Source: a phage. Taken from it: 64,000 nt of DNA. The stretch's first letter is position 1, and each line of letters opens with the position of its first letter. The stretch lies in the sequence record PZ452612.1; one strand, written 5' to 3'. The notes beneath the pieces are model-generated. The model ran no database searches. It was given only the letters and a program-made list of their open reading frames with translations, and was not told where the DNA came from. Made by a program: the position numbers and the translations under genes. Below are positions 33,322 through 47,860 of this stretch, piece by piece.

Positions 33322-33524
33322 TATTCTTCTACATGTTGTTTACGGCCTTTCTTATCAATAAAGGTATATTCAACGAATGTTCCGATGTAGTCTTTATCTA
33401 CATCATGTGGACTATTAATTGGACATTTGGTACGACAAATGCGTTCCCATTGACGAATAATTACTGCCTTATTCTTTGGGTCATATGGATGTGGATAATG
33501 TATATTCATAATAACGGTTCCCAA
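33297..33524 (-). CDS. Hypothetical small protein
   Basis: 75 aa ORF. Confidence 0.35.
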   Translation of the reverse strand: MGTVIMNIHYPHPYDPKNKAVIIRQWERICRTKCPINSPHDVDKDYIGTFVEYTFIDKKGRKQHVEEYCLKVTWL

Positions 33525-34003
33525 TCAACAATCACAATTTCTAGTTTAGTGGAATACGTATCTAAAATCTCTTCGATGACATCCCAGTTTCCGCCACCGA
33601 TACCTGCACCAATTCTTGGCATATAAATTACAGGCTTTGTTATCTTATTCTTTCCGAATTCATTTAATTCTATTATACAATTCATTAAAGCAGAGTACTC
33701 AAAATTAGGTCCCGGCTCAAACTGCGTATAAAGATTAAAGCAATAAGCTTTATGGGTCTTAAAATATTTTTCATAAACCGAATAAGTCCCGAGTTTAGAC
33801 TCGTCTCCGAATTCGGTTTGAAGTTTATCGGCTTCCAGAATTTTTGGATAAGCCTTTGCTAATTGTCCTGCCACACCGGCGCCCATTGTATGAAAACAAT
33901 TACACCCATGAGCAATATTATTACCTTTAGAAAACAGGGCGACAATATCGCCCTTGATATAGTTTTTAATCACTTGCTGCAAGTCCTCTAGTATAAGAGT
34001 CAA
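33506..34003 (-). CDS. Macro-domain protein (ADP-ribose binding/processing fold)
   Basis: NIAHGCNCFHTMGAGVAGQLAKAYP and MPRIGAGIGGGNW resemble the two glycine-rich loops of macro domains; 165 aa. Confidence 0.55.
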   Translation of the reverse strand: MTLILEDLQQVIKNYIKGDIVALFSKGNNIAHGCNCFHTMGAGVAGQLAKAYPKILEADKLQTEFGDESKLGTYSVYEKYFKTHKAYCFNLYTQFEPGPNFEYSALMNCIIELNEFGKNKITKPVIYMPRIGAGIGGGNWDVIEEILDTYSTKLEIVIVDWEPLL

Positions 34004-34313
34004 CTAGACGGTCCACCATAGAATTGCATGCTGCCTTATCTTTAGGTTCCGCCACCGAGCATTCTAATATTTGCCATTTTTTATAGTATCTTTTAATTAA
34101 GGTAGACGCCTTGAACCTACTAGACGCCCCATCTTTTTCTCCGTCTTTATACGCGTATAACAATTTTTGTGAAAAATCTACTTTACACTCTTGACTTTTA
34201 CCACAATAATCAGACGCCGTTCTGTTTGTATACTCCGTTACATCAGTATATGTAGTATTAGCAAGAGCGTTAAATGAAACCAAGCTAACTATTAAAGCCA
34301 ACATTTTGGTCAT
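33966..34313 (-). CDS. Secreted protein (signal peptide, four Cys)
   Basis: MTKMLALIVSLVSFNALA signal-like N-terminus; 115 aa. Confidence 0.45.
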   Translation of the reverse strand: MTKMLALIVSLVSFNALANTTYTDVTEYTNRTASDYCGKSQECKVDFSQKLLYAYKDGEKDGASSRFKASTLIKRYYKKWQILECSVAEPKDKAACNSMVDRLVDSYTRGLAASD

Positions 34314-34852
34314 TCTTTTATTTCCAGTAGTTTATTTGATTTAAGGTAATTAGCCTTTTCTAGGACTTCAGAAGCATATTTACTTCCAGCACTTGTCTTC
34401 CATCCCGCATTATATGAGGATATGGCTTTTCTTATATCCCCGTTATGTATATTTAACCAATAAGAAAATTCGATATAAGCCCATCTGGCTGAATTAGACC
34501 GCTTAGATAGCATTTTCTTAATTTGGGCATCAGTCATATTATAACCAAGCTGGTTAATTCTTGCCCTCATTGTTGGTAGATAGTTTTGGAACATTCCATA
34601 CGCATGGTGACCTTTCTTATCTTTAAGATTAATACCGGCAGATGATTCTTGCCATAGTATTGCGGCCATTATGTATCCAAGTCCTTTCTTATGCATATTT
34701 TCATGCGTTTTAAATTTTCCATCCTTAGAAAACTGTTCCCCAAACTGATAAGCATAATTCAAGTTATCGAGTTGGACATTACTAAAAGTATGCTCGGAGC
34801 TATGTGCTGATAACGAAAGAGCAAATAGACCAGCGAGTAGTGCTTTTCTCAT
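34310..34852 (-). CDS. Secreted lytic transglycosylase-like protein (SLT domain)
   Basis: Signal peptide MRKALLAGLFALSLSAHS, then ILWQESSAG...YGMFQ, which resembles the SLT catalytic Glu-Ser and GLMQ motifs; 180 aa. Confidence 0.55.
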   Translation of the reverse strand: MRKALLAGLFALSLSAHSSEHTFSNVQLDNLNYAYQFGEQFSKDGKFKTHENMHKKGLGYIMAAILWQESSAGINLKDKKGHHAYGMFQNYLPTMRARINQLGYNMTDAQIKKMLSKRSNSARWAYIEFSYWLNIHNGDIRKAISSYNAGWKTSAGSKYASEVLEKANYLKSNKLLEIKE

Positions 34853-34860
34853 GTTTACCT

Positions 34861-35319
34861 CTAGATTTTAATCACTGCTTTAGAAGCTTTTCCTGGTAGT
34901 CGTTTACTGTTAATAATAGCCATTCTGCATTGAAGAGTCTTCATTTTGAATGCTGGATTTTCGCGACAAACTGTAAGTCCTAACCAAAGATTTCCATCAG
35001 TTATTTCTAAACGGCCTGGGCGATATTCGACACCTTCGACAAAATCTTCATCAACATCTGGACGGGCTGGCATTGATAAAAATTCTGCAACTTCTTTAAC
35101 ATGATTTTTTACTTTATGAAATAATTCAAAAACGTAATTCTCATCTATTTCTCTCTGGATGGCACGATCTAAGAGATGTTGAGAATACTTGATATGAAAG
35201 CCTGGTAGTCCAAGAGACTTTGCAGCATCTTTTATACTGGCATTTATTTTGCGGAACTCCGTTTCAAAGATTCGACGGAGTTTATTGCGGCGGATAAAAA
35301 CGTCTGAATTGATAGTCAT
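34861..35319 (-). CDS. regB: Endoribonuclease RegB
   Basis: MTINSDVFIRRNKLRR...YSQHLLDRAIQREIDENYVFELFHK...QCRMAIINSKRLPGKASKAVIKI matches T4 RegB as recalled; 152 aa. Confidence 0.85.
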   Translation of the reverse strand: MTINSDVFIRRNKLRRIFETEFRKINASIKDAAKSLGLPGFHIKYSQHLLDRAIQREIDENYVFELFHKVKNHVKEVAEFLSMPARPDVDEDFVEGVEYRPGRLEITDGNLWLGLTVCRENPAFKMKTLQCRMAIINSKRLPGKASKAVIKI

Positions 35320-35346
35320 TTTGATTTCTCCTCTAGTTGACAGGTC

Positions 35347-35376
35347 TATAGTAACACAACTAGAGGAGAAGTAAAC
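35347..35376 (-). promoter_or_regulatory. Early-type promoter (GTTTAC -35, TACTAT-like -10) upstream of regB
   Basis: Minus strand reads GTTTACTTCTCCTCTAGTTGTGTTACTATAGACC. Confidence 0.4.
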
Positions 35377-35717
35377 TACTCTTTGAAAGGAATTAACTTT
35401 TTAACTGCTTTAGATACTTCGTCACGAACCTGGTGGAAGTTCTTGAGCTGTTCAAGGCGTTGTTCGTAATACGCAATCTCATCTTCTTCAAGACAATCGT
35501 CAGCGTCTTCTTTCAGATATGCCTTGTACTCATTAAAGAGGGCCCATAGGCGGTTCTCAAAGTCATCAAGGCTTTGAATTTTCTTGTGCTTCGGAACAAG
35601 GCCAAAAGGATTGCTTTCAGTTATGCGTCGAGATGCTTCATAATGAGTTCCAAAGCCTGATAGGATTTGAGCCATTAGTATTTTTCCTCTGGTTGAAATA
35701 CCGCACGACAAGCCCAC
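35376..35717 (-). CDS. Hypothetical protein
   Basis: 113 aa ORF. Confidence 0.4.
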
Positions 35718-35920: not shown

Positions 35921-36134
35921 AAGGAATTTCCTCATCGGTGGCAAGGTCATATTCGACCAATTGGATAGGCTCATTAATACCATATCCACGTACAGTGATA
36001 TCGGTTGTCGGATATTTTCCAGTAATATCACCCATTCTAAATGCTTCAGTGAATGATTGCTCGCCTGAGCAACTAAACCAGGCGGCAAAACATTTTAAAA
36101 CATCTTCAGACCCTTCTATAATCAATTTAGCCAT
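35910..36134 (-). CDS. Hypothetical acidic protein
   Basis: 74 aa ORF. Confidence 0.4.
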   Translation of the reverse strand: MAKLIIEGSEDVLKCFAAWFSCSGEQSFTEAFRMGDITGKYPTTDITVRGYGINEPIQLVEYDLATDEEIPYVD

Positions 36135-36496
36135 TATAGACTCTCAGTAAAGGTACGAGCGATAACGTCGCGCTGCTGTTCCGGGGTCAGAGAGTTAAAG
36201 CGAACTGCATAACCGGATACACGGATGGTCAGCTGTGGATATTTTTCCGGATGCTTAACTGCATCTTCCAGAGTTTCGCGACGCAGAACGTTAACGTTCA
36301 GATGTTGACCACCTTCAATTTTAACTTTAGGTTGATGTTCAATTTCAATTTCACGGGCATTCAAACCGTAGAAAATTTCCGGGTCTACAATAGCGTCTTC
36401 TTTAAAAGTCTTAGAGACGATAATCCGGGCTTGAGTACCGTCTTCAAAATAAATAGTGCCTTTATGTGCACCTTCAAGAATTTGATATGCTTTCAT
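36134..36496 (-). CDS. grcA: Autonomous glycyl radical cofactor GrcA/YfiD-like
   Basis: C-terminal ...[62 protein letters not shown] carries the RVSGY glycyl-radical motif and appears near-identical to enterobacterial GrcA as recalled. Confidence 0.85.
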
Positions 36497-38330: not shown

Positions 38331-38612
38331 CTATTTTTCTGAAGCGCCTGAAATATATTTTTCAAGACGTTGTTTCATCAGCGAGCCGTTCTTAGCGATT
38401 TCTTCCGGTTTATCGCACATACGCAACAAGGCTTCAAGCTTAACGATATCACTGGTGCGCTCAAATTTGCGAGTATCTATCTTACTGGCAAGTTCAGAAA
38501 TACGTGCTAATAGACTTTCAGCTTCAACCAAAGCTGCACCTAGCTTAGTTGCAAATGTGTCAGTAGCTTCGTTAAGAATAGATTCTGATAAAAATTCACT
38601 ATATGTTTTCAT
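38331..38612 (-). CDS. Internal protein (capsid-targeting leader MKTYSEFL)
   Basis: Start at the internal Met; ATG overlaps the stop of gene e. Confidence 0.6.
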
Positions 38613-39097
38613 ATATACGCTTTCCAAGTTCCTGTTTTAAATGTTGAGATTACGCGTTTCGCTCGATTAGGTGTCTGACGGTACCATTTAGATTGGGCTA
38701 GATTTACTGCCGCTTCATCCCAACGTTTCTGTTGAAGCATACGAAGAGAATTAGTAAAACCAGCGACGCCTGCTACACCCATTTGGAAGACCATATTGAC
38801 CAATGCACATCGACGAACCGCATCTAAAGAATCATATACCGGTTTAAGTTTAGCATTACCCAAGATTCCGCGAACGGCTTTATCAACGTCTTCATTAAAT
38901 AGCTTTTCAGCCTCATCAAGGGTAATTGTACCGTTGCATTTACGTCCGATCATTCTGTCAAGTTCAGCTTTAGCTACGGCTAAAGACGGGTTCTTTGTTA
39001 CTAAATGGCCTATGCCAATCGTCCAAAAGCCTTCAGTGTCTTTGTATAAAGTCAGTCTAAGACCTTCGTCATTACGAAGCATTTCAAATATATTCAT
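38609..39097 (-). CDS. e: Endolysin (T4-type lysozyme) e
   Basis: [32 protein letters not shown]... matches T4 lysozyme as recalled, with the catalytic Glu and Asp in EMLRNDEG / YKDTEG. Confidence 0.9.
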
Positions 39098-45551: not shown

Positions 45552-46127
45552 TTGTTATTTACATTCTTCGACCCAATAGGATATAGTGCTAAAACAGTTG
45601 ATAAGAATGCACCTACTATTCCTATGACAGACATATTTCGTAACTATAAAGAGTACTTTAAGCGTGTGGCTGCCAATTATAGATTACGTTCTTATTATAT
45701 TAAAGGCTCTCCGCGTCCTGAAGAACTAGCGAATATCATTTATGGCAACCCTCAATTATACTGGGTCCTTTTGATGTGCAACGATAACTACGACCCGTAT
45801 TATGGTTGGATTACATCTCAGGAAGCAGCGTATCAAGCTTCTATTCAGAAATATGCTAATGCTGGCGGCGACCAAGTTCTTTATCATATTAATGAAAATC
45901 GTGAGAAATTTTACAATTTGGTTTCATATCCGGACGAGCCTTTAGTGTGGTATGATAAAGGTGATGAAGCTCGTAAGTATCCGCAATATAAAGGACCTTT
46001 AGCTGCAGTAGATACTTATGAAGCTGCAGTATTAGATAATGAAAAACTTCGTAAAATAAAAATTGTTGCAAAAGAAGATATAAACTCGTTTATCACAGAT
46101 TTGATTCGTGAGATGGAGATTGCATAA
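45552..46127 (+). CDS. 53: Baseplate wedge protein gp53
   Basis: 191 aa ORF directly upstream of and overlapping gene 5. Confidence 0.85.
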   Translation: MLFTFFDPIGYSAKTVDKNAPTIPMTDIFRNYKEYFKRVAANYRLRSYYIKGSPRPEELANIIYGNPQLYWVLLMCNDNYDPYYGWITSQEAAYQASIQKYANAGGDQVLYHINENREKFYNLVSYPDEPLVWYDKGDEARKYPQYKGPLAAVDTYEAAVLDNEKLRKIKIVAKEDINSFITDLIREMEIA

Positions 46128-47860
46128 TGGAAATGATTAGCAGTAGCCTTAATTGGTTCGTGGGTGTTGTCGAGGACAGAATGGACCCATTAAAACAAGG
46201 GCGAGTTCGAGTTCGAGTCGTTGGTCTTCATCCAGCACAGAGAGCACAAGGTGATGTACAAGGTATTCCTACAGAAAAACTTCCATGGATGACTGTTATT
46301 CAACCTATTACGTCTGCATCAATGTCAGGTATTGGTGGTTCTGTTACAGGTCCTGTTGAAGGAACTCGAGTATATGGTCATTTCTTAGACAAATGGAAAA
46401 CAAACGGGATTGTACTTGGTACATACGGCGGAATCGTACGTGAAAAGCCTAATAGACTTGAAGGTTTTTCAGACCCGACAGGCCAGTATCCGCGACGTTT
46501 AGGTAATGATACGAACGTATTAAACCAAGGTGGTGAAGCTGGTTATTATTCAAACTCTAACGTAATTCAAGATAACAACTTGGATTATGGTATAAACCCG
46601 GATGATACAGATTTAGCAAATATTCCGGAAGATGATGACCCTAATTTTACAATAACAGAAATGTTACGTCGTGACGAAGGTCTTCGTGATAAAGTGTATT
46701 GGGACCATCTCGGATATCCTACCGTAGGTATTGGACACCTTATAGTAATGGAAAAAACCCGAGATATGTCTAGAATTAATAAATTGTTATCCGATCAAGT
46801 AGGGCGTGAAGTAACAGGAAATCCTGGGACTATTACATTAGAAGAAGCAACAGCGTTATTTGAGAAAGACCTTGCTAAGATGCAGAAAGACATTCGTTCT
46901 AATTCTAAAGTAGGTCCTGTTTATGCTAAAATGAACAGATCTCGCCAAATGGCATTAGAAAACATGTGCTTCCAAATGGGCGTTGGTGGTGTAGCAAAAT
47001 TCAATACTATGCTTAAAGCAATGGCCGAAGGCGATTGGAAAACTGCATACAAATCTGGACGCGATTCATTATGGTTCCAACAGACTAAAGGGCGTGCTTC
47101 ACGTGTAACAACAATTATTTTAACCGGTAACATGGAATCATACGGTGTTCCTGTTAAAACACCGCCTTCACCAGGAGTTGGTGCTGATTTAGTTACTAGA
47201 AATACCGATCCGGAAGACCCTGCTGGTCCTCCTGTTCCATTAGATTCACGTATCCTTTTTAAAGAACCTGAATCAAGTTATCGTGGTGAGTATCCATACG
47301 TTCATGCTATGGAAACAGAAAGTGGTCATATCCAAGAGTTTGACGATACTCCAGGTAATGAACGTTATCGCTTAGTTCATCCAACAGGGTCATATGAGGA
47401 AGTTTCTCCGTCTGGGCGTCGTACTCGTAAAACTGTAGAAGACCTTTTTGACATCACTAATGGTGATGGGAACTTCTTGATTTCTGGCGATAAGCTTGTT
47501 AACGTTGGTGCTAATGAAATATATTATAACATGGCAGACCGCCTCCATCAAATAGACGGCAATGACACAATCTTTATTCGTGGTAACCAATCTAAAACTG
47601 TTGAAGGCGATGGAACTCTTTACGTTAAGGGTAATATCAAAATAGTTGTTGACGGAAATGCAGATATTCTTGTTAAAGGTGATGCTAAAACTCAGGTCGA
47701 AGGGAATCATGATTACACCGTCAACGGAAACGTTAAATGGACTGTTAATGGTAATGTTGATATGACTGTTGCCGGTGATTGGGCAGAAAGAATGTCTACA
47801 ATGAGCTCAGTAGCTTCAGGACAATACACTGTTGACGGATCTCGTATTGATATTGGGTAA
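46127..47860 (+). CDS. 5: Baseplate hub and tail lysozyme gp5
   Basis: N-terminal OB-fold region, a central lysozyme domain (ITEMLRRDEGLRDKVYWDHLGYPTVGIGHL) and C-terminal VxGxxxxxV beta-helix repeats; 577 aa. Confidence 0.95.
   Translation: MEMISSSLNWFVGVVEDRMDPLKQGRVRVRVVGLHPAQRAQGDVQGIPTEKLPWMTVIQPITSASMSGIGGSVTGPVEGTRVYGHFLDKWKTNGIVLGTYGGIVREKPNRLEGFSDPTGQYPRRLGNDTNVLNQGGEAGYYSNSNVIQDNNLDYGINPDDTDLANIPEDDDPNFTITEMLRRDEGLRDKVYWDHLGYPTVGIGHLIVMEKTRDMSRINKLLSDQVGREVTGNPGTITLEEATALFEKDLAKMQKDIRSNSKVGPVYAKMNRSRQMALENMCFQMGVGGVAKFNTMLKAMAEGDWKTAYKSGRDSLWFQQTKGRASRVTTIILTGNMESYGVPVKTPPSPGVGADLVTRNTDPEDPAGPPVPLDSRILFKEPESSYRGEYPYVHAMETESGHIQEFDDTPGNERYRLVHPTGSYEEVSPSGRRTRKTVEDLFDITNGDGNFLISGDKLVNVGANEIYYNMADRLHQIDGNDTIFIRGNQSKTVEGDGTLYVKGNIKIVVDGNADILVKGDAKTQVEGNHDYTVNGNVKWTVNGNVDMTVAGDWAERMSTMSSVASGQYTVDGSRIDIG

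What the first reader, a model, noticed from the sequence alone, without database searches (positions are those of the whole stretch)
34310..34852. Secreted SLT-domain transglycosylase separate from the endolysin and gp5 lysozyme
A signal-peptide-bearing protein with an ES...YGMFQ lytic-transglycosylase-like core is encoded in the early region, separate from e and gp5. It may remodel peptidoglycan from the periplasm during infection or contribute to lysis timing.
Basis: partly seen in the sequence, partly recalled or inferred. Interest (0 to 1): 0.35.

Follow-up and report, generated by a model that had tools for sequence, protein, structure and literature searches.

The report
T4 vs.1: early exported lytic transglycosylase
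This gene is the counterpart of phage T4's vs.1, a small enzyme-like protein that is probably exported early in infection into the space between the host's two membranes to cut cell-wall sugar chains; the prediction holds up but was first published in 2000, and what the enzyme does for the phage is still unknown.

Summary
The ORF at 34310..34852 (minus strand, 180 aa) is real. It is the ortholog of T4 vs.1 (83% identity) in a Mosigvirus genome.

**What checks out**
- It has an N-terminal Sec-type signal peptide (MRKALLAGLFALSLSAHS|SEH).
- It has all four family-1 lytic-transglycosylase motifs: E69-S70, G86-M-F-Q89, Y147-N-A-G150 and Y159..V163.
- The AlphaFold2 model (pLDDT 88.6) matches only lysozyme-superfamily structures.
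- A 90-sequence family profile hits the solved transglycosylase EtgA (E=5.7e-6).
- Glu69 is invariant in 90 of 90 relatives. The position of the muramidase second Asp is Ala, as in Slt70.
- Endolysin e (38609..39097) and gp5 (46127..47860) are separate GH24 genes.

**Not new**
- The SLT similarity of vs.1 was published in 2000 and 2006, and some GenBank records already carry the name.

**Published data on the T4 ortholog**
- The RNA is early and the protein is detected.
- The gene is non-essential.
- Transposon mutants of vs.1 and of the overlapping downstream gene vs are both about tenfold under-represented.

**Open**
- Catalysis, localisation and biological role are untested.
- Vs itself looks like an exported four-cysteine protein, which is odd for a valyl-tRNA synthetase modifier.

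The parts
34310..34852 (-). vs.1 coding sequence (180 aa precursor; predicted mature protein is residues 19-180, 18.7 kDa, pI 9.6, no Cys)
   Evidence: ORF list. 83% identical to T4 Vs.1, and in the same regB-vs.1-vs-tk.4 gene order. PHROG 600 at E=3.7e-67. Protein properties.
34799..34852 (-). Codons 1-18: predicted Sec (signal peptidase I) signal peptide, MRKALLAGLFALSLSAHS, with the cut predicted after S18
   Evidence: Charged residues, hydrophobic core (maximum KD 2.65) and an A-x-S site. The same kind of segment, with AxA-type sites, is present in all 26 close relatives and in 87 of 90 distant representatives. Heuristic only; no SignalP was run.
34634..34654 (-). Motif I, W67-Q-E69-S70-S-A-G73. 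The catalytic Glu69 codon is 34646..34648 (GAA).
   Evidence: E69 is present in 90/90, S70 is S or T in 90/90, and G73 in 89/90. E69 aligns with the catalytic Glu of EtgA and of Slt70. It lies at the C-terminal end of helix 59-70 in the AF2 model.
34583..34600 (-). Motif II, Y85-G86-M-F-Q89-N90 (the 'GLMQ' motif), on the predicted beta-hairpin. A84, just before it, occupies the position of the muramidase second Asp.
   Evidence: G86 in 87/90; Q89 is Q in 53 and H in 28 of 90. Position 84 is S in 50, D in 19 and A in 18 of 90. The meaning of EtgA D60 and the Ala at that position in Slt70 come from PMC10880428.
34403..34417 (-). Motif III, S146-Y147-N148-A-G150 (the 'AYNAG' motif)
   Evidence: Y147 in 90/90, G150 in 90/90, N148 in 77/90. 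Aligned to AYNAG of EtgA and Slt70.
34364..34378 (-). Motif IV, Y159-A-S-E-V163
   Evidence: Y159 in 90/90; position 163 is I or V in 88/90. Aligned to EtgA 'YAMKIY'. That Tyr is described as a conserved active-site residue in PMC10880428.
34858..34861 (-). Shine-Dalgarno GAGG, 5 nt before the vs.1 ATG. It overlaps the regB stop codon and does not contain a GGAG RegB site.
   Evidence: Read directly from the sequence.
34861..35319 (-). regB (endoribonuclease), the gene immediately upstream in the same transcription unit
   Evidence: Pfam REGB_T4 at E=2.1e-69; PHROG 1323.
35348..35376 (-). Early-promoter-like site upstream of regB: GTTTAC (35376..35371), a 17-nt spacer, then TACTAT (35353..35348)
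   Evidence: Sequence. It aligns with T4's GTTTAC...TGTGGTATAAT. T4 vs.1, vs and their neighbours are classed as early RNA. Promoter function was not measured here, and the site scores below the cut-off of the generic sigma-70 scan.
33966..34313 (-). vs (115 aa). Its ATG overlaps the vs.1 stop codon (ATGA), so the two are probably translationally coupled. It is a candidate periplasmic partner of Vs.1.
   Evidence: ORF coordinates. PHROG 1256, 'valyl tRNA synthetase modifier'. A signal-like N-terminus and 4 invariant Cys are conserved across genera. A vs-like gene lies immediately downstream of vs.1 in 8 of the 13 phage genomes inspected, each from a different lineage.
38609..39097 (-). Comparator, not part of the feature: endolysin e (GH24)
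   Evidence: Pfam Phage_lysozyme at E=7.5e-14. No similarity to Vs.1.
46127..47860 (+). Comparator, not part of the feature: gp5 tail lysozyme (GH24 domain)
   Evidence: Pfam Gp5_OB, Phage_lysozyme and Gp5_C.

Best explanation
The ORF encodes the Mosigvirus ortholog of T4 Vs.1, a small soluble family-1 (SLT/GH23-type) lytic transglycosylase.

**Proposed mechanism**
- The gene is transcribed early from the regB promoter.
- The protein is exported by Sec and cut after Ser18, releasing a mature protein of about 18.7 kDa into the periplasm.
- There, Glu69 acts as the single acid/base catalyst to cleave MurNAc-beta-1,4-GlcNAc bonds of the host sacculus. The products most likely carry 1,6-anhydroMurNAc ends.

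**Proposed role**
- It is an accessory enzyme. It is neither the lysis enzyme (e) nor the entry enzyme (gp5).
- It loosens or shortens glycan strands during the latent period and so gives a modest gain in infection fitness.
- It may act together with the exported product of the overlapping downstream gene vs.

**Status of each step**
- Shown in silico: orthology, signal-peptide features, conserved catalytic motifs and the fold.
- Shown by others for T4: early RNA, detected protein, dispensability and a mild insertion cost.
- Inferred: export and cleavage, transglycosylase rather than hydrolase chemistry, the biological role and any Vs partnership.
For: **Orthology**
- 83% identity to T4 Vs.1, with the regB-vs.1-vs-tk.4 gene order conserved.

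**Membership of the SLT family**
- Pfam SLT matches this protein at E=0.0013, 25 of 26 close relatives at E<=0.01 (best 1.3e-7) and 59 of 90 distant representatives (best 2.2e-10).
- The 90-sequence profile hits the solved EscI-EtgA structure 8urn at E=5.7e-6 across all four motifs.
- hhalign to E. coli Slt70 residues 482-584 gives E=2e-4.

**Fold**
- The AF2 model has pLDDT 88.6 and pTM 0.82.
- Foldseek-PDB ranks 1-36 are all lysozyme-superfamily enzymes: GH23 chitinase, MltD, Slt, phi6 lysin, LtgA, Cj0843 and i-type lysozymes. Probabilities are near 1.0 for the top 20 and fall to 0.47-0.95 for ranks 21-36.
- BFVD neighbours beyond the Vs.1 family itself are mostly LT_GEWL or SLT proteins.

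**Active site**
- E69, Y147, G150 and Y159 are invariant in 90 of 90 relatives.
- E69 is the only invariant acidic residue.
- A84 replaces the muramidase Asp, as Ala does in Slt70.

**Export**
- The signal peptide is conserved in 87 of 90 relatives.
- 45 of 90 relatives carry a co-varying Cys pair, one just after the cleavage site and one near the C-terminus. This makes sense only in an oxidising compartment.

**Expression and fitness in T4**
- Early RNA and detected protein.
- Non-essential, with 46 of 52 TA sites hit.
- Mean insertion counts are 22.6 for vs.1 and 26.6 for vs, against 179-767 for the neighbours regB, vs.3, vs.4, tk.4 and tk.3. In minimal medium vs.1 shows log2FC -0.87 (p=0.0055).

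**Not the lysis or entry enzyme**
- Insertions in e and gp5 are almost absent even though vs.1 is intact.
Against: - No enzymatic, localisation or mutant data exist for this protein. I found no biochemical study of T4 Vs.1 in the searchable literature.
- This sequence alone scores below Pfam's gathering cut-off (18.8 against 21.3 bits). It finds nothing in PDB by phmmer, and the 26-sequence profile also fails.
- Foldseek-PDB E-values are weak (0.016 or worse) and TM scores are only about 0.5.
- Signal-peptide cleavage was judged by rule of thumb only.
- EtgA, the best-matching solved relative, is itself unresolved between muramidase and transglycosylase (PMC10880428).
- The T4 fitness signal for vs.1 is not significant after correction (adjusted p = 0.155). 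It could also reflect loss of translational coupling to vs rather than loss of Vs.1.
Confidence: 0.72

Rival explanations
1. It is an exported muramidase, a hydrolytic goose-type or 'hybrid' lysozyme like the one proposed for EtgA, and not a lytic transglycosylase. It would have the same fold and location but produce hydrolysed reducing MurNAc ends.
For: - SLT enzymes and goose-type lysozymes share family GH23.
- The family profile weakly hits cod g-type lysozyme 3gxk (E=0.059).
- The top Foldseek hit is a GH23 hydrolase, the Ralstonia chitinase.
- 19 of 90 relatives carry Asp at the position of the lysozyme second Asp.
- The chemistry of EtgA itself is unresolved.
Against: - In this protein and in the T4-like group that position is Ala, as in the bona fide transglycosylase Slt70.
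- Glu69 is the only invariant acid in the family.
- The E-S, GxxQ, YNAG and Y motif set is the family-1 transglycosylase signature (own knowledge: Blackburn and Clarke classification).
Confidence: 0.15
2. It is a lysis-phase factor: a second, Sec-delivered endolysin or a pre-weakening enzyme whose main effect is to set or sharpen lysis timing, analogous to signal-peptide or SAR endolysins.
For: - An exported muralytic enzyme in principle bypasses the holin.
- The gene lies 2-4 kb from rI and e.
Against: - It is expressed early, not with the late lysis genes.
- Its hydrophobic core is only about 13 residues and is followed by an AxS cleavage site, unlike an uncleaved SAR anchor.
- In Felixounavirus and Kuttervirus genomes the homolog sits in early regions, next to rIIB/pseT and gp46 respectively, and not in lysis cassettes.
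- T4 e insertions are nearly lost although vs.1 is intact, so Vs.1 cannot lyse cells alone.
- No lysis-timing data exist either way.
Confidence: 0.15
3. It is catalytically weak or inactive and acts mainly by binding peptidoglycan or a partner, for example by scaffolding or regulating Vs or host wall enzymes.
For: - Cells tolerate the protein from early infection without lysing.
- EtgA is poorly active and unstable without its partner EscI.
- It is tightly linked to vs.
- vs.1 and vs insertions are under-represented to a similar degree.
Against: - Absolute conservation of the catalytic Glu and the substrate-groove Tyr, Asn and Gly residues across clusters that are at most 50% identical points to selection for catalysis.
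Confidence: 0.08
4. It is a virion-associated entry enzyme, like T7 gp16, PRD1 P7 or phi6 P5.
For: Foldseek neighbours include phi6 lysin, internal virion proteins and tape-measure transglycosylase domains.
Against: - A cleavable signal peptide sends the protein out of the cytoplasm, where virions assemble.
- It is in the early expression class.
- gp5 already provides the tail lysozyme and is indispensable.
- vs.1 is dispensable.
Confidence: 0.02

Closest known systems
Bacteriophage T4 Vs.1 (UniProt P13311; 'Vs.1 conserved hypothetical protein' / 'transglycosylase SLT domain-containing protein')
   Same: - Ortholog: 83% identity over 178 of 180 residues.
- Same length and the same signal peptide and motifs.
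- Same regB-vs.1-vs-tk.4 gene order, and the same overlap with vs.
   Different: Only sequence drift (Mosigvirus against Tequatrovirus). The -10 element of the upstream promoter is TACTAT instead of TATAAT.
Specialised small lytic transglycosylases of secretion machines (EtgA of the EPEC T3SS; by own knowledge also IpgF, IagB, VirB1 and P19)
   Same: - Best sequence match among solved structures (8urn, E=5.7e-6).
- About 150-180 aa, consisting of a Sec signal peptide and a single lysozyme-like domain.
- Same catalytic Glu, the Gln of motif II, the Asn of YNAG and the motif IV Tyr.
- Many distant Vs.1 relatives have a Cys pair, and EtgA and its closest relatives share a conserved disulfide.
   Different: - No secretion machine or known docking partner is present.
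- It is encoded by a virulent phage and expressed early.
- Ala replaces EtgA's Asp60.
- A family-specific N-terminal segment (residues 20-58, with invariant Gln27) lies outside the Pfam SLT match.
E. coli Slt70 C-terminal catalytic domain (Pfam SLT PF01464, GH23 family 1A)
   Same: - ES, GLMQ-like and AYNAG motifs align (hhalign E=2e-4).
- Ala occupies the position of the lysozyme second Asp.
- Both are soluble periplasmic proteins made with a signal peptide.
   Different: - Slt70 is 645 aa, with large U and L superhelical domains that make it an exo-enzyme. Vs.1 is the bare catalytic domain.
- Identity is only about 20%.
Phage muralytic enzymes with known roles: T4 e and gp5 (GH24), lambda R transglycosylase, T7 gp16 and phi6 P5 virion transglycosylases, SAR endolysins
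   Same: All cleave, or are predicted to cleave, the glycan backbone of the host wall. All have the lysozyme-superfamily fold.
   Different: - Different family from e and gp5, with no sequence similarity.
- Not late and not in a lysis cassette.
- Not in the virion.
- Exported by a cleavable signal peptide rather than released by a holin or a SAR anchor.

Membership tests
T4 Vs.1 orthologous group (PHROG 600) | High full-length sequence identity to T4 Vs.1 | tested here: met
   83.1% identity over residues 1-178 to T4. PHROG 600 at E=3.7e-67, covering 1-178 of the protein and 1-176 of the 178-position profile.
T4 Vs.1 orthologous group (PHROG 600) | Conserved position between regB and vs | tested here: met
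   The order regB-vs.1-vs-tk.4(macro) is found in the window, T4, VR25, P545, C6 and KP179.
Family-1 lytic transglycosylase (SLT domain, PF01464, GH23) | Match to the Pfam SLT model at the curated threshold | tested here: inconclusive
   This protein scores 18.8 bits (E=0.0013), below the gathering score of 21.3. Relatives do match at E<=0.01: 25 of 26 close ones (best 1.3e-7) and 59 of 90 distant ones (best 2.2e-10).
Family-1 lytic transglycosylase (SLT domain, PF01464, GH23) | Catalytic Glu followed by Ser/Thr (motif I) at the C-terminal end of a helix | tested here: met
   E69 in 90/90; S70 is S or T in 90/90. Helix 59-70 in the AF2 model. Aligned to the catalytic Glu of EtgA and Slt70.
Family-1 lytic transglycosylase (SLT domain, PF01464, GH23) | Motifs II (G-L-M-Q), III (A-Y-N-x-G) and IV (conserved Tyr) | tested here: met
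   G86-M-F-Q89, S-Y147-N-A-G150 and Y159 are all present. G86 in 87/90, and Y147, G150 and Y159 in 90/90. They align with the same motifs in EtgA and Slt70.
Family-1 lytic transglycosylase (SLT domain, PF01464, GH23) | Lysozyme-like alpha-helical fold | tested here: met
   AF2 model with pLDDT 88.6. Foldseek-PDB ranks 1-36 are all lysozyme-superfamily enzymes, with probabilities near 1.0 for the top 20 and 0.47-0.95 for ranks 21-36. E-values are modest (0.016-1.8) and TM scores are 0.4-0.5.
Family-1 lytic transglycosylase (SLT domain, PF01464, GH23) | No second catalytic Asp (single-acid mechanism) | tested here: met
   The position equivalent to EtgA D60 and hen lysozyme D52 is A84, as Ala is in Slt70. 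E69 is the only invariant acid in the family.
Family-1 lytic transglycosylase (SLT domain, PF01464, GH23) | Non-hydrolytic cleavage that gives 1,6-anhydroMurNAc products | not testable with these tools
   Needs purified enzyme, sacculi and muropeptide LC-MS.
Sec-exported soluble periplasmic protein (signal peptidase I substrate) | Tripartite signal peptide with small residues at -3 and -1, and no lipobox | tested here: met
   R2/K3, a 13-residue hydrophobic core, A16-H-S18 before the cut, and no Cys. The feature is conserved in all 26 close relatives and in 87 of 90 distant ones; only 8 of 90 have a lipobox-like motif. This is a hand-rule assessment; SignalP was not available.
SAR (signal-anchor-release) endolysin | Uncleaved, weakly hydrophobic N-terminal transmembrane domain of about 20 residues; a late gene in a lysis cassette with a pinholin | tested here: not met
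   The hydrophobic core is only about 13 residues and is followed by an AxS site. The gene is in an early unit with regB. No holin is adjacent.
Specialised (machine-associated) lytic transglycosylases (EtgA/VirB1 type) | Small exported single-domain transglycosylase that is targeted or activated by a partner protein of a trans-envelope machine | tested here: inconclusive
   Size, signal peptide and best PDB match fit this type. No machine is present. The only candidate partner is the exported-looking Vs, encoded by the overlapping downstream gene, and no interaction test was possible.

The most novel reading that the evidence does not exclude
Vs.1 and the product of the overlapping downstream gene vs form a two-protein periplasmic wall-remodelling module. 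In this reading Vs is a Sec-exported, disulfide-bonded partner, activator or restrainer of the transglycosylase.

It would follow that the long-standing label of Vs as a 'valyl-tRNA synthetase modifier', and the recently reported requirement for vs in minimal medium, reflect an envelope function at least in part. That function would matter most when the wall of slow-growing cells is more cross-linked.

The evidence does not exclude this:
- All nine Vs homologs inspected keep a signal-like N-terminus with an AxA-type site, and all keep four conserved Cys.
- vs directly follows vs.1 in 8 of the 13 phage genomes inspected, each from a different lineage, including one that lacks regB.
- vs.1 and vs transposon mutants of T4 are under-represented to a similar degree.

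Against it stand the classical work reporting that the vs product modifies the cytoplasmic valyl-tRNA synthetase (own knowledge) and the possibility that vs.1 insertions simply reduce vs translation.
Probability: 0.15. Interest if true: 0.65.

Novelty: already known. Interest (0 to 1): 0.27.

Why it matters
As a prediction this adds nothing new. T4 vs.1 has been linked to lysozyme/SLT domains since 2000 and 2006, and several GenBank records already call it an SLT-domain protein.

The interest lies in the unanswered biology. An early-expressed transglycosylase that looks Sec-exported is conserved in more than 2000 sequenced phage genomes, spanning Straboviridae, Ackermannviridae and Felixounavirus. 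It fits neither of the two textbook roles of phage wall enzymes, entry and lysis.

Knowing why large virulent myoviruses cut the host wall from the periplasm during the latent period would fill a gap in the T4 infection cycle. The answer might also explain the shared fitness cost of vs.1 and vs mutants.

Tried and rejected
**Searches that found nothing**
1. Single-sequence phmmer against PDB gave no hit. The 26-sequence profile gave only noise, with metacaspase at the top. Only the 90-sequence profile reached EtgA.
2. NCBIfam gave no family.
With the close alignment it returned only a 167-kb T4-like phage contig binned as 'bacterium' and one weak fragment. There is therefore no evidence of close cellular relatives.
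4. A cluster look-up of ten distant representatives found unnamed metagenomic sequences only.
5. Literature searches for experimental work on Vs.1 were empty apart from genome-comparison papers.

**Leads that did not hold**
6. The Vs structure came out at low-to-moderate confidence (pLDDT 72.5 from 3 sequences), and Foldseek gave nothing usable (best E=0.85). The rank-2 and rank-3 hit, a DUF1311 protein (probability 0.09, TM 0.2), is noise and not evidence. By own knowledge that family includes a lysozyme inhibitor, but Pfam found nothing for Vs.
7. The terminator-like hairpin after vs (33936..33954) is conserved in T4. However, it lies inside the tk.4 coding sequence and T4's T-tract is poor, so I do not claim it as a terminator.
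8. P0141, a 2679-aa hit with 16 matched stretches, is a Glu/Ser/Gln-rich repetitive protein without the motifs. It is spurious.

**Readings rejected**
9. The SAR-endolysin, virion-enzyme and back-up-endolysin readings were rejected on signal-peptide anatomy, expression class, genomic context and the T4 e and gp5 insertion data.
Full report
**1. What is there**

The window is a T4-like phage genome. Positions 33900-35400 are 100% identical to E. coli O157 typing phages 3, 6 and 13 (genus Mosigvirus, Straboviridae).

The finding's coordinates match an ATG-initiated ORF of 180 codons on the minus strand, 34310..34852. A GAGG Shine-Dalgarno lies 5 nt upstream and overlaps the stop codon of the preceding gene.

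On the minus strand the local order is as follows:
- an early-promoter-like site (GTTTAC, 17 nt, TACTAT; 35376..35348);
- regB (34861..35319; Pfam REGB_T4, E=2e-69);
- this ORF;
- vs (33966..34313), whose ATG overlaps this ORF's stop as ATGA;
- tk.4, a macro-domain gene (annotated 33506..33973).

This is the regB-vs.1-vs-tk.4 arrangement of T4. The protein is 83% identical to T4 Vs.1, so the ORF is the vs.1 ortholog.

**2. Checking the observation**

- an N-terminal MRKALLAGLFALSLSAHS|SEH segment with two basic residues, a 13-residue hydrophobic core and Ala at -3 and Ser at -1;
- E69-S70;
- Y85-G-M-F-Q89.

In addition there are S-Y147-N-A-G150 and Y159-x3-V163. Together these complete the four motifs of family-1 lytic transglycosylases (motif definitions from my own knowledge of the Blackburn and Clarke classification).

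The ORF is not a chance reading frame. tblastn finds relatives in 2053 phage records, from Escherichia, Klebsiella, Salmonella, Acinetobacter, Aeromonas, Vibrio, Erwinia and other phages. These include Ackermannviridae (Cba120) and Felixounavirus. An exhaustive profile search of 1.84 billion cluster representatives finds 465 clusters at E<=0.001, almost all 160-200 aa long.

Endolysin e (38609..39097, minus strand) and the gp5 tail lysozyme (46127..47860, plus strand) are both in the window. Both are GH24 'Phage_lysozyme' proteins, and e is unrelated in sequence to this ORF (E=0.96).

**3. Is it an SLT-type enzyme?**

The evidence from this one sequence alone is marginal:
- Pfam SLT gives E=0.0013 and 18.8 bits, under the 21.3-bit gathering score.
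- NCBIfam gives nothing.
- phmmer against PDB gives nothing.
- PHROG 600, which it matches, is labelled 'unknown function'.

The family-level evidence is much stronger:
- 25 of 26 close relatives and 59 of 90 distant representatives hit Pfam SLT at E<=0.01 (best 1.3e-7 and 2.2e-10).
- A profile of the 90 sequences hits the crystal structure of the T3SS transglycosylase EtgA (8urn, E=5.7e-6). The alignment runs through the catalytic Glu, the G-x-x-Q strand, the YNAG motif and the final Tyr.
- hhalign places the profile on residues 482-584 of E. coli Slt70, which contain its ES, GLMQ and AYNAG motifs (E=2e-4, probability 47%).

AlphaFold2 with 26 sequences gives a confident all-helical model with a small beta-hairpin (pLDDT 88.6, pTM 0.82). 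Glu69 sits at the end of helix 59-70 and GMFQ lies on the hairpin.

Foldseek against PDB returns no match with E<=0.001. However, ranks 1-36 are without exception lysozyme-superfamily enzymes: Ralstonia GH23 chitinase, MltD, P. aeruginosa Slt, phi6 lysin, i-type lysozymes, Cj0843 and LtgA. E-values run from 0.016 to 1.8 and TM scores from 0.4 to 0.5; probabilities are near 1.0 for the top 20 and 0.47-0.95 for the rest. Against predicted viral structures, the neighbours beyond the Vs.1 family itself are mostly LT_GEWL or SLT proteins.

Across 90 representatives that are at most 50% identical to one another:
- E69, Y147, G150, Y159 and the family-specific Q27 are invariant.
- S70 is Ser or Thr in all.
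- E69 is the only invariant acidic residue.

The residue aligned with EtgA Asp60 (hen lysozyme Asp52) marks muramidases. Here it is Ala84, as it is in Slt70. I therefore file the protein as a family-1, SLT/GH23-type enzyme and predict transglycosylase rather than hydrolase chemistry. That last step is inference. The authors of the EtgA structure state that even EtgA's chemistry is unsettled (PMC10880428).

**4. Is it exported?**

No signal-peptide predictor was available, so this rests on anatomy and conservation.
- All 26 close relatives have the same n-h-c layout with AxA-type sites, although the sequence itself drifts.
- 87 of 90 distant representatives have a hydrophobic N-terminal segment, and only 8 have a lipobox-like motif.
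- In 45 of 90 representatives a Cys just after the predicted cleavage site co-occurs with a Cys about seven residues from the C-terminus (47 and 45 occurrences, both present in 45). This pattern is expected for a disulfide in the periplasm. The T4-like members have lost both Cys.
- The hydrophobic core is too short (about 13 residues), and is followed by too good a cleavage site, to be a signal-anchor-release domain.

**5. Expression and phenotype (published T4 data)**

In T4, vs.1 (P13311) is classed as early RNA and middle protein, so the protein is made (Wolfram-Schauerte et al. 2022, PMC9697503, supplementary tables). The promoter-like site upstream of regB in the window aligns with T4's GTTTAC...TGTGGTATAAT.

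A 2025 transposon-sequencing preprint (HIDEN-SEQ, doi 10.1101/2025.11.20.689424) reports the following for T4:
- vs.1 is 'Non-essential', with 46 of 52 TA sites hit.
- In the LB against M9-glucose competition table, mean insertion counts in the LB control are 22.6 for vs.1 and 26.6 for vs.
- The neighbours score 179 (regB), 652 (vs.3), 265 (vs.4), 290 (tk.4) and 767 (tk.3).
- In minimal medium vs falls by log2FC -2.19 (adjusted p about 0). This is the authors' headline hit, confirmed with a knockout.
- vs.1 falls by log2FC -0.87 (p=0.0055, adjusted p=0.155).

So vs.1 and vs mutants share a roughly tenfold under-representation that regB mutants do not show. This fits a common function. It fits equally well with vs.1 insertions disturbing translation of the overlapping vs gene.

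Insertions in e (mean 2.5) and gp5 (0.0) are almost absent although vs.1 is intact. Vs.1 therefore cannot stand in for either enzyme.

**6. Most likely mechanism and its rivals**

The best-supported reading is an accessory, Sec-exported, soluble periplasmic lytic transglycosylase. It is made from the early regB transcription unit and nicks glycan strands during the latent period.

I rate the enzyme-and-location statement at about 0.7. The biological role is much less certain. My preferred guess is remodelling or loosening of the sacculus, which would matter most in slow-growing cells, possibly together with Vs.

The rivals are:
- hydrolytic muramidase chemistry (0.15);
- a lysis-timing or back-up endolysin role (0.15). 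This overlaps with the main reading in enzymology but is disfavoured by expression class, genomic context in other phage families and the requirement for e;
- a non-catalytic binding or regulatory protein (0.08), disfavoured by invariant catalytic residues;
- a virion entry enzyme (0.02).

**7. The neighbour vs**

Vs is annotated as a valyl-tRNA synthetase modifier (PHROG 1256).

In every homolog I examined it has a signal-peptide-like N-terminus with an AxA-type site and four conserved cysteines. The homologs were from the window, T4, ESCO47, VR25, P545, C6, KP179, Acj61 and the unannotated Thanatos-1 ORF.

A vs-like gene sits immediately after vs.1, overlapping it or within 2 nt, in 8 of the 13 phage genomes inspected, each from a different lineage. 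One of these is Acinetobacter phage Acj61, where regB is not adjacent. It is absent after vs.1 in phiAS4, CC2, leE, Cba120 and UAB_Phi87.

An exported, disulfide-bonded protein is hard to reconcile with a factor that binds a cytoplasmic synthetase. I could not resolve this. The Vs model is of moderate quality and has no informative structural neighbour.

**8. Comparison with what is known, and novelty**

The ORF is a member of the T4 Vs.1 family. The similarity of vs.1 to lysozyme/SLT domains has been published twice:
- Kawabata et al. 2000, as cited in Nolan et al. 2006;
- Nolan et al. 2006 (PMC1524935), who report Pfam SLT at E=0.012-0.74 in all six genomes compared and suggest 'some role in cell lysis'.

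Several GenBank records already name the protein an SLT-domain protein. The finding is therefore already known as a prediction.

I found no biochemical or cell-biological study of the protein. Its combination of early expression and apparent Sec export sets it apart from the two textbook classes of phage wall enzymes. In size and architecture it most resembles the specialised transglycosylases of secretion systems.

**Verdict**

It is not novel, and it is of modest interest as it stands. The link between vs.1 and vs is the more intriguing open question.

Noticed in passing
window 33966..34313 (-), gene vs: The 'valyl-tRNA synthetase modifier' Vs has a signal-peptide-like N-terminus (MTKMLALIVSLVSFNALA|NTTY) and four invariant Cys. 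Both features are conserved in T4, ESCO47, VR25, P545, C6, KP179, Acj61 and an unannotated ORF of Shewanella phage Thanatos-1. Its start overlaps the vs.1 stop (ATGA). It looks like an exported, disulfide-bonded periplasmic protein, which is at odds with binding a cytoplasmic synthetase. In T4 it is the gene most depleted in minimal medium.
   Followed up: partly
window 33506..33973 (-), gene tk.4 (the longest ORF runs to 34003): This is a macro-domain protein (Pfam Macro E=2.2e-6; PHROG 335 'phosphatase'). Its T4 ortholog Tk.4 was recently named AdfM, an anti-DarTG2 factor, in the HIDEN-SEQ preprint.
   Followed up: partly
L001 (NC_041863) features gp239, gp245 and gp246; also database names of P0010 and P0044 and hits H54, H59 and H62: There is annotation drift. 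Vs.1 homologs in several phages, including Ackermannviridae, are named 'RegB', 'endoribonuclease' or 'site-specific RNA endonuclease', apparently copied from the neighbouring gene.
   Followed up: no
window 35328..35331 (regB SD) and 34858..34861 (vs.1 SD): regB's own ribosome-binding site contains GGAG, which by own knowledge is the RegB cleavage motif. The vs.1 site is GAGG, without GGAG. This suggests vs.1 translation might escape RegB inactivation.
   Followed up: no
window 33936..33954 (-): A GC-rich hairpin (AGGGCGATATTGTCGCCCT, followed by a T-rich tail) lies just after the vs stop. It is identical in T4, but it sits inside the 5' end of the tk.4 coding sequence. It may be an attenuating terminator or merely a result of coding conservation.
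   Followed up: partly
alignment A2 (distant Vs.1 relatives), columns aligned to window residues ~18 and ~173: Half of the distant family members (45 of 90) carry a co-varying Cys pair linking the start and end of the mature protein. The T4-like clade, including this window, has lost both.
   Followed up: partly
Vs.1 residues 20-58 (window about 34679..34795): A family-specific N-terminal segment (FSxxQxxNLxYAYxFGEQ, with Gln27 invariant in 90 of 90) lies outside the Pfam SLT match (residues 61-154). It is modelled with high confidence as a helix plus short strands. Its role is unknown.
   Followed up: no
window 36134..36496 (-), gene vs.6: This is a GrcA-like autonomous glycyl-radical cofactor gene, in the same early cluster four genes upstream of regB. 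Its annotation is known.
   Followed up: no
L007 (CAVJPU010000002.1, 167,038 bp, titled 'bacterium isolate ... cleanbin'): The only close 'genome' hit for Vs.1 is a 167-kb contig of T4-like size, deposited as a bacterial MAG bin. It is probably a complete phage genome that was mis-binned.
   Followed up: no
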